Positions 15,785 through 16,915 of a stretch of DNA of 32,000 bases are shown in pieces (the stretch's first letter is position 1; each line of letters starts with the position of its first letter). Where the stretch lies: contig JBAZMW010000001.1 in assembly GCA_041649575.1 (NCBI GenBank), forward strand, positions 150,001 to 182,000, read 5' to 3'. The DNA is from Patescibacteria group bacterium (GTDB lineage Bacteria > Patescibacteriota > Patescibacteriia > 2-01-FULL-39-33). The translations under genes and the position numbers were made by a program. The notes under the pieces are model-generated. The model had not been told where the DNA came from. It was given only the letters and a program-made list of their open reading frames with translations, and searched no databases.

Positions 15785-16915
15785 ATGAAGTATTTAGAAT
15801 TAAGGAATAGGATTGAAAATTTTACCAAGTATCCAAAAACTCAAAAGATCTCTCGCTCCCTCATTGTTAACAAGGGATTTCATGGTAATTTTAATATTAG
15901 TTTTGGCGAAGCGCCGTTCCTTGAAAAGTTTGGAAATTATTTGGACAATTCAGAAGCGTATAATTTTTCCACCATTCAGCAAGTTATAAGGGTAAATGAT
16001 TTTAGAGACGACTTGGACTCAACACATCTCTTACTGTTTGATATGGCAGATGTTTCTGGTTTTATTGGTGGAAAAAATGTTTCAGATGATGAAAGAAAAA
16101 ATATTGCCAGTTTTACCATCAGAAAAACATTTGAGTTTTTAATTAATGAGTTGAAACTAAAGCCGGAACGTTTCAAGATTTCGTATTTGACCGGAGGAAA
16201 TGTTGAAGTATTGACAGCTGGAAAATATAAATTTGATAAATATGTTGAAGGCGACTCTTTTATAAAAACTGCAAAAGAATTTGGTATTTGTGATGAACAA
16301 TTTATCCCCGACCAGACAAGAACAACTCTGCTAGCATTGAATTTTCAGCCACCAGTTTGTTGGGGTTATCGCAATGAAATTTTATATCAAACTGACAGCC
16401 CGAGCGAATTATTAGATATTGCTTCTATCGAAAACTTACTTTGGCGGCCGGTGTTTAAAAATGGAATCATAGCCGATCTGGCTAGATGGGAAAATTTTTG
16501 GTCTTTTCAGGTTGTGGGTGTAGAAAGGTTATTAATGCTGATAAATAATTCGGACAAAGTTTATGCGGCTGATCATATTATGCCACTTATCACTAAATTT
16601 TCAGAAGTGACAAATAGTTTGGATATCCATGTTTGCCGTATTACAATGGAGCTGCTACGAGTTTTCCATAGAATTGTAGCTGATATGGAAGGTTTTTCAA
16701 TATTGTCCAGCTCGAGAAAAGAAAAGCTCATACCATATCGTAGAAAATTTTTACAAAATTGTGAAAAATTAGGCTTTGACTATAAAACAAATTTAAAAGA
16801 ATTATTGACTCTTAACGGCAAATTGCAGCCATGTTATCCTGAACTCCTTTCGGGCACTGAAGCTAAAACTAATAAAATAATAGAATGGTTGAGAAAAGGA
16901 AAGATATATACTTAA
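15785..16915 (+). CDS. Stand-alone alanyl-tRNA-synthetase catalytic-core-like paralog with degenerate motifs
   Basis: I chose the ATG at 15785 over the track's TTG at 15722, which lies inside the inverted repeat. Several blocks align with my recollection of the AlaRS N-terminal domain. STIQQVIRVNDFRDDLDSTHLLLFDMADVSGF aligns with SQRCVR..NDLENVG.TARHHTFFEMLGNFSFG. IENLLWRPVF aligns with IEIWNIVFMQ. VVGVERLLMLINNSDKVYAADHIMPLI aligns with DTGMGLERIAAVLQ..SNYD.DLF..LI. No editing or C-Ala domain is present. One hand-counted 60-nt line was 27% GC. The ORF overlaps murD by 31 nt. Confidence 0.6.
   Translation: MKYLELRNRIENFTKYPKTQKISRSLIVNKGFHGNFNISFGEAPFLEKFGNYLDNSEAYNFSTIQQVIRVNDFRDDLDSTHLLLFDMADVSGFIGGKNVSDDERKNIASFTIRKTFEFLINELKLKPERFKISYLTGGNVEVLTAGKYKFDKYVEGDSFIKTAKEFGICDEQFIPDQTRTTLLALNFQPPVCWGYRNEILYQTDSPSELLDIASIENLLWRPVFKNGIIADLARWENFWSFQVVGVERLLMLINNSDKVYAADHIMPLITKFSEVTNSLDIHVCRITMELLRVFHRIVADMEGFSILSSSRKEKLIPYRRKFLQNCEKLGFDYKTNLKELLTLNGKLQPCYPELLSGTEAKTNKIIEWLRKGKIYT

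What the first reader, a model, noticed from the sequence alone, without database searches (positions are those of the whole stretch)
15785..16915. Stand-alone, motif-degenerate AlaRS catalytic-core paralog embedded in the dcw cluster and overlapping murD
**What it is.** A 376-aa ORF between mraY and murD aligns block by block, from my recollection of E. coli AlaRS, with the aminoacylation domain of alanyl-tRNA synthetase. It stops before the tRNA-recognition, editing and C-Ala domains.

**Why it may be non-canonical.** Key catalytic positions appear substituted:
- TARHHTFFEMLGNFSFG becomes DSTHLLLFDMADVSGF.
- DTGMGLER becomes QVVGVER.
- The GPCGPC loop becomes PPVCWGY.

**Context.** Its 3' end overlaps the murD start by 31 nt, which suggests translational coupling. 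It is markedly more AT-rich than its neighbours: 27% GC in one hand-counted 60-nt line against about 45% in a murD line. An unusual inverted-repeat element lies just upstream.

**Interpretation.** aaRS-like paralogs have repeatedly been recruited to non-translational amino-acid ligation; HisZ, AsnA, EpmA and the amino acid:carrier-protein ligases are examples. An AlaRS-core paralog wired into the peptidoglycan precursor pathway could be an uncharacterised activity, for example stem-peptide or lipid-II amino-acid modification, or a regulatory pseudo-enzyme. I am not aware of a characterised precedent.
Basis: partly seen in the sequence, partly recalled or inferred. Interest (0 to 1): 0.72.

Follow-up and report, generated by a model that had tools for sequence, protein, structure and literature searches.

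The report
Stand-alone AlaRS-like enzyme, inserted by chance
The gene between mraY and murD does encode a stand-alone relative of the alanyl-tRNA synthetase catalytic core, from a large unannotated family in tiny symbiotic bacteria and archaea, but it is a foreign insertion with no conserved link to cell-wall genes.

Summary
The ORF is real: 15785-16915, + strand, 376 aa. It is a true homologue of the AlaRS catalytic fragment. An AF2 model (pLDDT 91) matches AlaRS fragments at TM 0.76, and profile-profile probability is 99.7%.

- The class II ATP-site residues are nearly invariant in 110-180 relatives: motif 2 Arg and Phe, two acidic residues, and motif 3 GxER.
- Only the alanine pocket is rebuilt; one of six residues is kept.
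- It also keeps about 120 residues of the helical tRNA-recognition domain.

The family has 424 clusters at 50% identity, in CPR bacteria and DPANN archaea, all unannotated.

Cell-wall linkage is not conserved:
- None of about 50 family loci lies near mraY or murD.
- None of 80 related murD loci carries the gene.
- In the closest relatives mraY abuts murD.
- GC3 is 0.29 against 0.55-0.59 in mraY, ftsW, murG and murC.

The only recurrent partner is a divergently transcribed TrmBL2-like regulator. Its C-terminal domain is fused to the enzyme in one subfamily.

Best reading: a horizontally acquired, ATP-dependent adenylate-forming enzyme with a non-alanine substrate. A characterised precedent for a truncated AlaRS-like enzyme exists (AcmF).

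The parts
14499..15554 (+). mraY, the upstream neighbour and part of the host dcw cluster
   Evidence: Pfam Glycos_transf_4, E 4e-32, plus MraY_sig1. GC3 0.58.
15555..15784 (+). Structured AT-rich spacer that came in with, or was created by, the insertion. It contains a perfect 28-nt palindrome (15561-15588) and a long nested hairpin (~15606-15760) with a GC apex at 15665-15693.
   Evidence: Inverted repeats. Both elements are unique in the window. RNA fold energy is -72 kcal/mol, z = -6.5. There is no Rfam match. The spacer is not shared with the upstream regions of homologues. In close relatives this spacer is -1 to 29 nt long.
15785..16915 (+). AlaRS-core-like protein, 376 aa plus stop. It comprises a class II aminoacylation-domain homologue (residues 1-248) and the first helical bundle of the tRNA-recognition domain (residues 249-376).
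   Evidence: It is 100% identical to NCBI hypothetical protein WC518_00790 from a Patescibacteria MAG.
15989..16042 (+). Motif 2 region: R69 (15989-15991), D72, F85 (16037-16039) and D86. These correspond to E. coli AlaRS R69, D76, F90 and E91.
   Evidence: R, D and F are present in 108-109 of the 109 family sequences occupying these columns. Codons verified.
16190..16246 (+). Family-specific 19-residue insertion (residues 136-154, TGGNVEVLTAGKYKFDKYV), with G137 in 92% and G138 in 80% of members. AlaRS has nothing here.
   Evidence: hmmalign and hhalign gaps. Conservation.
16361..16432 (+). Active-site strands: W193-G194-Y-R196-N-E198 (AlaRS GPCGPCxE) and D211-I-A-S214-I-E216 (AlaRS E209-I-W-N212-I-V214).
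   Evidence: Of 110 members, 110 have G194, 100 have R196, 107 have E198, all have D or E at 211, 108 have T or S at 214, and 81 have E216. The register is supported by the bridging sequence P0157.
16505..16528 (+). Motif 3: F241-Q-V243-V-G245-V-E247-R248. The AlaRS equivalent is D235-T-G237-M-G-L-E-R.
   Evidence: G, E and R are present in 177-180 of 180 members. D235 becomes I, L, V or F, and G237 becomes A, G or V.
16885..18321 (+). murD. Its first 31 nt (16885-16915) overlap the 3' end of the AlaRS-like gene.
   Evidence: Pfam MurD-like_N, Mur_ligase_M and Mur_ligase_C. Sequence.
18322..18934 (.). Abnormally long murD-ftsW spacer, a second scar in the same cluster. It holds an 80-nt duplicate of the murD 3' end (18340-18419) followed by a GC-rich segment (~18430-18770).
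   Evidence: Direct repeat at 85% identity. In 12 of the 14 closest relatives this spacer is 5-80 nt. No Rfam match.
18935..22561 (+). ftsW, murG and murC, the rest of the host dcw cluster.
   Evidence: Pfam hits. GC3 0.55-0.59.

Best explanation
The ORF encodes a member of a large, unannotated family of stand-alone AlaRS-core-like proteins found in CPR bacteria and DPANN archaea.

**What it is and how it probably works**
- Most likely it is still a working class II adenylate-forming enzyme.
- It would bind ATP in the usual class II way: motif 2 Arg on the alpha-phosphate, motif 2 Phe and motif 3 Arg around the adenine, and two acidic residues holding Mg2+.
- It would activate a carboxylate substrate that is not L-alanine. 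The alanine pocket has been rebuilt around two new conserved glutamates (E42, E216), a Thr/Ser (S214) and a new arginine (R196).
- The acceptor of the activated acyl group is unknown. It could be a small amine, a protein, or an RNA acceptor end held by the retained helical bundle.

**Partners elsewhere**
- In other genomes the gene is paired with a divergently transcribed TrmBL2-like DNA-binding protein.
- In one subfamily the enzyme is fused to that protein's C-terminal domain. Its activity or ligand is therefore probably tied to that regulator.

**In this genome**
- The gene is a foreign, AT-rich cassette that landed between mraY and murD without the regulator.
- It now overlaps murD and is probably co-transcribed with it.
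- This placement is an accident of insertion, not evidence of a peptidoglycan function.

**Shown versus inferred**
- Shown: the homology and fold, the residue conservation pattern, the family's distribution, the lack of dcw linkage, the insertion, and the regulator linkage and fusion.
- Inferred: ATP use, adenylate formation, the nature of the substrate, and the functional meaning of the regulator link.
For: **Fold and homology**
- AF2 model with pLDDT 91. Foldseek matches AlaRS catalytic fragments at E 7e-17 and TM 0.76; the next best fold, GlyRS-alpha, reaches TM ~0.37.
- hhalign gives 99.3-99.7% to AlaRS against 27% to GlyQ.
- P0157 bridges the family (128 bits) to E. coli AlaRS (BLASTP 4e-30).

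**ATP-site conservation**
- R69, D72, F85, G194, E198, D/E211, G245, E247 and R248 are each conserved in 97-100% of 110-180 members.

**Pocket change**
- Only R69 survives of the six E. coli alanine/lactate-pocket residues M43, R69, W170, N212, D235 and G237 (PMC12467997).
- The replacements are E42, L183, S/T214, a hydrophobic residue at 241 and A/V/G at 243, plus E216 for V214.

**Family size and range**
- 424 clusters at 50% identity, 100 of them with E<=1e-30, nearly all ~360-400 aa.
- 41 GTDB species, nearly all labelled as CPR or DPANN lineages.

**Not the housekeeping AlaRS**
- A canonical short AlaRS lies 5 kb from a family member in a Pacearchaeota contig.

**Insertion**
- GC3 0.29 against 0.55-0.59 in mraY, ftsW, murG and murC.
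- The gene is less GC-rich than its flanks in many loci.
- mraY abuts murD in the closest relatives, and no related murD locus carries the gene.
- Unrelated genes are inserted at the same junction elsewhere.

**Regulator link**
- A TrmB/TrmBL2-like gene lies at gene position -1 to -3 on the opposite strand in 16 of 45 loci, in both domains of life. This includes relatives of X at 64% and 69% identity.
- Fusions to its C-terminal domain occur in at least six clusters. They are confirmed by a model whose C-terminal part matches TrmBL2 structures.
Against: - No biochemical data exist for any member.
- Conservation of ATP-site residues does not prove catalysis; a ligand- and ATP-binding sensor would also keep them.
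- The residue mapping of the E209/N212/V214 strand depends on intermediate sequences. A direct profile-profile alignment places that strand differently, at low confidence.
- The W170 equivalence (L183) is only moderately certain.
- I could not superpose coordinates.
- A relative at 71% identity sits in a glycosyltransferase/Wzy operon, and the window also has envelope genes nearby. A loose cell-envelope association cannot be fully excluded.
- Whether this MAG has a canonical alaS could not be checked.
Confidence: 0.55

Rival explanations
1. It is an aminoacyl-tRNA-dependent transferase like AcmF. The protein would bind a charged tRNA through its AlaRS-like scaffold and pass the amino acid to an acceptor amine, without using ATP.
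For: - AcmF is a characterised truncated AlaRS-like protein. It has only the aminoacylation and tRNA-recognition domains, and its alanine-activating residues are altered, N219Q and D232E (PMC12945691).
- X has a similar truncated architecture and has also lost the equivalents of N212 and D235.
Against: - AcmF lacks most ATP-binding residues. This family keeps all of them at 97-100%.
- The family lacks the second half of the tRNA-recognition domain, ending at about AlaRS residue 370.
- It has no biosynthetic-cluster context and no dedicated AlaRS partner next to it.
Confidence: 0.12
2. It is a sensor subunit rather than an enzyme. The AlaRS-like domain would bind ATP plus a metabolite, or an uncharged RNA end. 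It would pass that signal to the TrmBL2-like DNA-binding protein by direct contact, controlling transcription. HisZ and the HisRS-like domain of GCN2 work on comparable logic.
For: - The only conserved partner is a TrmBL2-like wHTH protein encoded divergently.
- The partner's C-terminal domain is fused to the AlaRS-like protein in a subfamily.
- TrmBL2 proteins oligomerise into tetramers and lack the sugar-binding subdomain of TrmB (PMC4877046).
- E. coli AlaRS is itself annotated as a DNA-binding repressor.
- Conserved palindromes lie in the shared intergenic regions.
Against: - Divergent regulator-target pairs are the commonest arrangement for ordinary enzymes too.
- The full catalytic set, including both Mg-binding acidic residues, is conserved, which a pure sensor would not need.
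- The window copy has no such regulator within 32 kb.
Confidence: 0.15
3. It is a peptidoglycan-precursor-modifying enzyme. It would activate an amino acid and add it to the stem peptide or to lipid II, and it is placed between mraY and murD for that reason.
For: - It has the same orientation as mraY and murD and overlaps murD by 31 nt.
- A relative at 71% identity lies between glycosyltransferase genes and a Wzy-like gene.
- Some other insertions at the same junction are wall-related, namely MurI and a PgeF-like protein.
Against: - None of about 50 family loci is near mraY, murD or ftsW.
- None of 80 related murD loci carries a family member.
- The family is abundant in DPANN archaea, which do not make murein (established knowledge).
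- Its codon usage is foreign.
- Restriction enzymes and NYN nucleases land at the same junction.
Confidence: 0.05
4. It is a divergent but genuine aminoacyl-tRNA synthetase. It would charge a tRNA acceptor stem with an amino acid other than alanine, or charge tRNA-Ala through a rebuilt pocket.
For: - The ATP site is intact and part of the acceptor-stem-binding helical domain is kept.
Against: - It lacks the Asp-containing half of the recognition domain.
- Its patchy, accessory distribution and variable context are unlike a housekeeping synthetase.
- It coexists with a canonical AlaRS in at least one genome.
- It scores far below the curated alaS cut-offs.
Confidence: 0.08

Closest known systems
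Alanyl-tRNA synthetase catalytic fragment (E. coli AlaRS 1-441/461, human AlaRS catalytic domain 4XEM; Pfam PF01411)
   Same: - Same fold: class II core plus the first helical bundle, TM 0.76.
- Same order of motifs.
- Motif 2 Arg and Phe, the acidic Mg ligands and motif 3 GxER are retained.
   Different: - Only 16-18% identity, and below the Pfam and NCBIfam cut-offs.
- Five of the six alanine-pocket residues are replaced.
- It has a 19-residue family-specific insertion.
- The AlaRS loop 188-204 is absent.
- It ends at about AlaRS residue 370, so it has no distal recognition subdomain, no editing domain and no C-Ala.
AcmF, the AlaRS-like Ala-tRNA-dependent aminoacyl transferase of ascamycin biosynthesis (PMC12945691)
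   Same: - A stand-alone truncated AlaRS-like protein without editing or C-Ala domains.
- The Asn and Asp that hold alanine in AlaRS are changed.
- It has a non-translational role.
   Different: - AcmF has lost most ATP-binding residues and uses pre-charged tRNA; this family keeps the ATP site.
- AcmF sits in a Streptomyces biosynthetic cluster beside a dedicated AlaRS (AcmD); this family does not.
- Sequence relatedness to AcmF could not be tested.
Naturally shortened true AlaRSs: Tupanvirus mini-AlaRS (PMC10036535) and small-AlaRS of CPR, DPANN and Asgard lineages (bioRxiv 10.1101/2023.05.29.542759)
   Same: Reduced AlaRS architectures. The small-AlaRS type occurs in the same lineages.
   Different: These are canonical in sequence and pocket and charge tRNA-Ala. 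The short AlaRS found next to a family member in L046 is of this type, and it coexists with the family rather than being the family.
Other stand-alone class II synthetase paralogues (AsnA, EpmA/PoxA, HisZ, amino acid:carrier-protein ligases)
   Same: The same evolutionary pattern: a synthetase catalytic core freed from tRNA-decoding domains and given a new substrate or a regulatory role.
   Different: They derive from AspRS, LysRS, HisRS or SerRS cores, not AlaRS. None is known to pair with a TrmB-family protein.
Bacterial GlyRS alpha subunit (GlyQ)
   Same: It is the nearest non-AlaRS fold, and it shares a W-G...E loop motif and the motif 3 GLER sequence.
   Different: Only motif 3 aligns by profile (probability 27%), and structural TM is ~0.37.

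Membership tests
Alanyl-tRNA synthetase (PF01411 tRNA-synt_2c; TIGR00344 alaS) | Scores above the curated profile cut-off | tested here: not met
   Pfam 13.6 bits against a cut-off of 30.3. NCBIfam alaS 15 bits against 457. Nine of 21 relatives hit PF01411, best E 3.4e-6.
Alanyl-tRNA synthetase (PF01411 tRNA-synt_2c; TIGR00344 alaS) | AlaRS-type class II catalytic fold followed by a helical tRNA-recognition bundle | tested here: met
   Foldseek against 4XEM gives E 7e-17 with TMq and TMt both 0.76. All of the top 24 hits are AlaRS.
Alanyl-tRNA synthetase (PF01411 tRNA-synt_2c; TIGR00344 alaS) | Class II ATP-site residues: motif 2 Arg and Phe, acidic Mg ligands, motif 3 GxER | tested here: met
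   R69, F85, E198, D211 and G245/E247/R248 are conserved in 97-100% of 110-180 members.
Alanyl-tRNA synthetase (PF01411 tRNA-synt_2c; TIGR00344 alaS) | Alanine-binding pocket M43, R69, W170, N212, D235, G237 (E. coli numbering; PMC12467997) | tested here: not met
   Only R69 is kept. The others are E42, L183, S214, F241 and V243. The W170 equivalence is moderately certain.
Alanyl-tRNA synthetase (PF01411 tRNA-synt_2c; TIGR00344 alaS) | Complete tRNA-recognition domain, editing domain and C-Ala | tested here: not met
   The alignment ends at AlaRS ~370 of 461. The protein is 376 aa.
Alanyl-tRNA synthetase (PF01411 tRNA-synt_2c; TIGR00344 alaS) | Charges tRNA-Ala with alanine | not testable with these tools
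   This needs an aminoacylation assay.
AcmF-type AlaRS-like aminoacyl-tRNA-dependent transferase | Truncated AlaRS with only the aminoacylation and tRNA-recognition domains | tested here: met
   No editing or C-Ala domain is present, although only about half of the recognition domain is kept. AcmF description from PMC12945691.
AcmF-type AlaRS-like aminoacyl-tRNA-dependent transferase | Loss of most ATP-binding residues | tested here: not met
   The ATP-site residues are retained at 97-100%.
AcmF-type AlaRS-like aminoacyl-tRNA-dependent transferase | Sequence relatedness to AcmF, and a biosynthetic cluster with a dedicated AlaRS | not tested
No cluster-like context was seen in about 50 loci.
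Peptidoglycan / dcw-cluster function | Conserved linkage to mraY, murD or other wall genes across genomes | tested here: not met
   No family locus is near mraY, murD or ftsW. None of 80 related murD loci carries the gene.
Peptidoglycan / dcw-cluster function | Homology to known wall enzymes (Mur ligases, Fem/MurM transferases) | tested here: not met
   No such Pfam or NCBIfam hit.
Stand-alone class II synthetase paralogues (as a kind) | Catalytic core alone, coexisting with the canonical synthetase of the same genome | tested here: inconclusive
   Met for a relative: L046 has a canonical short AlaRS 5 kb away (NF002436, E 1.5e-112). Not checkable for this MAG. There is no alaS in the 32-kb window.

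The most novel reading that the evidence does not exclude
The family could be a new enzyme-plus-regulator module shared by CPR bacteria and DPANN archaea. An AlaRS-derived, ATP-using protein would sense or ligate a specific metabolite (or an RNA end). It would be physically coupled to a TrmBL2-type DNA-binding protein. That would be a prokaryotic case of a synthetase-like domain wired directly to transcription or chromatin, or else a new non-translational amino-acid ligase activity.
Probability: 0.2. Interest if true: 0.8.

Novelty: new variant of a known kind. Interest (0 to 1): 0.5.

Why it matters
Stand-alone synthetase cores have repeatedly turned out to be new enzymes, for example AsnA, EpmA and AcmF.

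This family is large and has no annotation: 424 clusters at 50% identity. It is found almost only in the smallest-genome symbionts of both prokaryotic domains. It keeps a complete ATP site but has a rebuilt substrate pocket.

Finding its substrate would add a reaction to the very sparse known metabolism of these organisms. The link to a TrmBL2-like protein suggests a concrete experiment.

For this window in particular, the result removes a tempting but wrong inference. Sitting inside the dcw cluster here reflects insertion at a permissive junction, not a cell-wall function.

Tried and rejected
1. **Riboswitch or T-box leader upstream.** Rfam at a permissive threshold found nothing credible upstream of the window gene or of L013.
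2. **Upstream palindrome as an operator for the TrmBL2-like partner.** The partner-linked intergenic regions carry different palindromes: TGTCAAT-N14-ATTGACA in CPR loci and TGTA-N8-TACA-type in archaeal loci. Neither occurs in the window spacer.
3. **Defence-system or phage protein.** PADLOC and PHROGs gave no hit for the protein.
4. **Closer to GlyRS-alpha than to AlaRS.** Rejected: 27% against 99% profile probability.
5. **Glutamate dehydrogenase as a conserved partner.** It is adjacent in only 3 loci, too few to count.
7. **Direct strict-family HMM alignment to E. coli AlaRS.**
   - It aligns only motif 3 onward with confidence.
   - The N-terminal mapping therefore rests on hhalign, a broader HMM and the bridging sequence P0157.
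   - hhalign and the HMM disagree on the register of one strand. I kept the register supported by P0157.
8. **Canonical alaS in this MAG.** It cannot be checked from a 32-kb window.
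Full report
**1. What is in the window**

An intact ORF runs from ATG 15785 to TAA 16913-16915 on the + strand and encodes 376 aa. A longer TTG start at 15722 exists, but all homologues begin at the MKYLELR... position.

Upstream lies mraY (14499-15554). Downstream come murD (16885-18321), ftsW, murG, murC and murB, then secA.

The murD ATG at 16885 lies inside the ORF, so the two genes overlap by 31 nt. No other in-frame start precedes the KKVTVMGLG strand of MurD.

The protein is 100% identical to an NCBI hypothetical protein (WC518_00790) from a Patescibacteria MAG.

**2. Is it AlaRS-like?**

Yes. Four lines of evidence agree.
- The single sequence gives only weak, collinear hits. 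Pfam tRNA-synt_2c gives E 0.025, and NCBIfam alaS gives E 0.005; both are far below their cut-offs.
- An AF2 model built on 21 homologues is confident (pLDDT 91, pTM 0.90). Its top 24 Foldseek hits in the PDB are all AlaRS. The best is the human catalytic domain 4XEM (E 7e-17, TM 0.76 both ways). The next fold, GlyRS-alpha, reaches only TM ~0.37.
- Profile-profile comparison of a strict 180-member family alignment with real AlaRS sequences covers X 1-376 against AlaRS 3-370. The AlaRS sequences were E. coli alaS fetched and a Clostridium AlaRS. Probability is 99.3-99.7%. E. coli GlyQ aligns only at motif 3, at 27%.
- One sequence, P0157, bridges the two groups. It scores 128 bits to the family HMM and BLASTP E 4e-30 to E. 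coli AlaRS.

**3. Which residues are kept**

I mapped residues through a family HMM, a stricter alignment and the bridge. E. coli numbering follows the literature.

| E. coli AlaRS | Window protein | Conservation in family |
|---|---|---|
| R69 | R69 | 109 of 109 occupying the column |
| D76 | D72 | 109 of 109 occupying the column |
| F90 | F85 | 108 of 109 occupying the column |
| E91 | D86 | D or E in 72 of 109 (H in 15) |
| G179 | G194 | 110/110 |
| E183 | E198 | 107/110 |
| E209 | D211 | D or E, 110/110 |
| motif 3 G-x-E-R | G245, E247, R248 | 177-180/180 |

These are the residues that hold ATP and Mg2+ in class II synthetases (established knowledge of the class).

By contrast, the alanine/lactate pocket of E. 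coli AlaRS is M43, R69, W170, N212, D235 and G237 (PMC12467997). Only R69 survives.

| E. coli AlaRS | Window protein | Family pattern |
|---|---|---|
| M43 | E42 | Glu in 83/110 |
| W170 | L183 | moderately certain equivalence |
| N212 | S214 | Thr or Ser in 108/110 |
| V214 | E216 | Glu in 81/110 |
| D235 | F241 | variable hydrophobic |
| G237 | V243 | A, V or G |

A new arginine, R196, is present in 100 of 110 members.

The family also has a 19-residue insertion (136-154, with a largely conserved Gly-Gly: G137 92%, G138 80%) and lacks the AlaRS loop 188-204.

Caveat: hhalign places the strand 209-224 in a different register, at low confidence. The register I use is supported by P0157, which reads VEIATCAF against AlaRS IEIWNIVF and family LDIATIEY.

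**4. Domain limits**

Residues 249-376 align to AlaRS ~244-370. A family profile against the PDB matches positions 241-374 to AlaRS 223-355, and hhalign agrees.

The protein therefore keeps the first helical bundle of the tRNA-recognition domain. It lacks the distal half of that domain, the editing domain and C-Ala.

**5. How big is the family, and where is it found?**

A word-indexed search found only 22 clusters. An exhaustive profile search found 424 representative clusters at E<=1e-3, 215 at E<=1e-10 and 100 at E<=1e-30. Nearly all are stand-alone proteins of 360-400 aa.

In GTDB species genomes, 41 loci were found.
- CPR bacteria: Moranbacteria, Uhrbacteria, Saccharibacteria, Buchananbacteria and Berkelbacteria.
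- DPANN archaea: Woesearchaeota, Pacearchaeota, Nanoarchaeota and Iainarchaeota.
- One locus is a canonical Clostridium AlaRS (L053), and two carry other taxon labels.

All members are unannotated or named 'hypothetical'.

One Pacearchaeota contig has a canonical short AlaRS 5 kb from the family member (NF002436, E 1.5e-112). The family is therefore not simply that organism's AlaRS.

**6. Is the cell-wall context conserved?**

No. I called ORFs in 45 distinct family loci and compared them with the window's genes. None has mraY, murD or ftsW within 6 kb. That includes the relatives at 75-77% identity, L013, L014 and L015.

Four more close relatives (54-71% identity) also lie elsewhere. One of them sits in an operon of glycosyltransferase, NUDIX, RluA, the family gene, glycosyltransferase and Wzy.

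I then approached from the other side. Of 80 metagenome loci anchored on MurD relatives (38-70% identity), none carries a family member. In the closest ones with upstream sequence (L064, L065, L066, L070, L082, L073), mraY is followed by murD after -1 to 29 nt. In 12 of the 14 closest loci murD is followed by ftsW after 5-80 nt.

The window instead has 1,330 nt between mraY and murD and 614 nt between murD and ftsW.

Elsewhere the same mraY-murD junction holds unrelated insertions:
- a DpnI-like nuclease;
- NYN-domain proteins;
- an MmeI-type restriction-modification enzyme;
- a histidine phosphatase;
- two wall-related genes, MurI and a Cu-oxidase_4/PgeF-like protein.

The junction is therefore permissive to insertion.

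The gene's composition is foreign. GC is 0.337 and GC3 is 0.29, against GC3 of 0.55-0.59 in mraY, ftsW, murG and murC. Family genes are often less GC-rich than their flanks in other genomes too.

**7. The one conserved partner**

In 16 of 45 loci a ~250-aa protein is encoded one to three genes upstream on the opposite strand. This holds in both CPR and DPANN genomes, and in relatives of the window protein at 64% and 69% identity.
- The N-terminus of this protein is a TrmB-type winged helix. PF01978 hit 14 of 135 immediate neighbours, and no other family hit more than 3.
- Its full length matches TrmBL2 structures (5BPD, E 1.6e-10).

In a Berkelbacteria genome (L051) and at least six protein clusters of 523-543 aa, the C-terminal domain of this partner is fused to the end of the AlaRS-like protein (E 1e-27 to 1e-31). 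A confident model of one fusion (pLDDT 89.6) matches AlaRS fragments with its N-terminal part and TrmBL2 with its C-terminal part (E 5e-8).

The shared intergenic regions carry conserved palindromes.

The window has no such regulator, and its own upstream palindromes are different.

**8. Mechanism**

Shown:
- the fold;
- the intact ATP site;
- the rebuilt pocket;
- the accessory, mobile distribution;
- the insertion;
- the regulator linkage and fusion.

Inferred:
- The protein binds ATP and forms an acyl-adenylate with a carboxylate other than alanine.
- The new Glu pair and the Arg suggest a substrate with a cationic group and perhaps a second anionic group.
- The acceptor is unknown.

I give this reading 0.55. 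The rivals are:
- a sensor subunit for the TrmBL2-like protein (0.15);
- an AcmF-like aminoacyl-tRNA-dependent transferase (0.12), disfavoured because AcmF has lost the ATP site (PMC12945691);
- a divergent true synthetase (0.08);
- a peptidoglycan-modifying enzyme (0.05).

**9. Comparison with what is known, and novelty**

Stand-alone synthetase-core paralogues are a known kind. A truncated AlaRS-like enzyme, AcmF, has been characterised. Shortened true AlaRSs are also known: the mini-AlaRS (PMC10036535) and the small-AlaRS (bioRxiv 10.1101/2023.05.29.542759).

This family differs from all of these. Its ATP site is kept, its pocket is replaced, its recognition domain is cut in half, and it is tied to a TrmBL2-like protein.

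I rate it a new variant of a known kind, of moderate interest. The specific cell-wall hypothesis is not supported.

Noticed in passing
window 18322-18934: The murD-ftsW spacer is 614 nt, against 5-80 nt in 12 of the 14 closest relatives. It starts with an 80-nt direct duplicate (85% identity) of the murD 3' end (18340-18419 against 18238-18317). A ~340-nt GC-rich segment (~18430-18770) follows, with no Rfam match and only a weak folding signal (z about -2.4 and -2.1). It looks like a second insertion or recombination scar in the same cluster.
   Followed up: partly
L061-L140 (mraY-murD junctions of related CPR genomes): The mraY-murD junction is a recurrent insertion site. Different genomes carry a DpnI-like nuclease (L072), NYN-domain proteins (L084, L076), an MmeI-type restriction-modification enzyme (L074), a histidine phosphatase (L076), a Cu-oxidase_4/PgeF-like protein (L088) or glutamate racemase MurI (L127, L089) there.
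   Followed up: partly
L013:5850-6003, L014:5850-6003, L001:150-214: Three CPR genomes with 75-77% identical homologues share a conserved block just upstream of the start codon: AATTAAAAGTTTTTCCGCCTWCGGCGG(A)GATTATTTGGGGCTATTTTTTAT. It is a hairpin followed by a T-rich tract. L013 and L014 share about 150 nt. It has no Rfam match and is absent from the window. It may be a promoter or leader that travels with the gene.
   Followed up: partly
L010:5788-6000, L055:5855-6000; L027, L033, L040, L048 intergenic regions: Intergenic regions between the TrmBL2-like gene and the AlaRS-like gene carry conserved palindromes. CPR loci have TGTCAAT-N14-ATTGACA. Archaeal loci have TGTA(G/A)TAA..TTTTTTACACCA, with a TGTA-N8-TACA core. 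These are candidate operators.
   Followed up: no
P0146 (910 aa), P0161 (1488 aa), P0157 (460 aa): There is a second, more AlaRS-like type of stand-alone paralogue. P0146 is a tandem duplication of a ~440-aa AlaRS-like unit. P0161 has two such units followed, by eye, by a long C-terminal extension resembling GAF and histidine-kinase domains (no domain scan was run). In P0157, the only one aligned to AlaRS, the equivalents of D235 and G237 are also lost.
   Followed up: no
L003:7275-8519, L005:7222-8478: In a few distant family loci, one bacterial-like and one archaeal, a glutamate/leucine-type (ELFV) dehydrogenase gene lies directly downstream of the AlaRS-like gene. This is too rare (3 loci) to call conserved.
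   Followed up: partly
window 1500-6500: This stretch is 55-61% GC in a ~45% GC window. It includes an 847-aa protein with bacterial TSP3 repeats and several immunoglobulin I-set domains (4219-6765, minus strand).
   Followed up: no
L047:3480-3640: By eye, two tRNA-like sequences lie between the TrmBL2-like gene and the AlaRS-like gene in one Patescibacteria locus. No tRNA scan was run.
   Followed up: no
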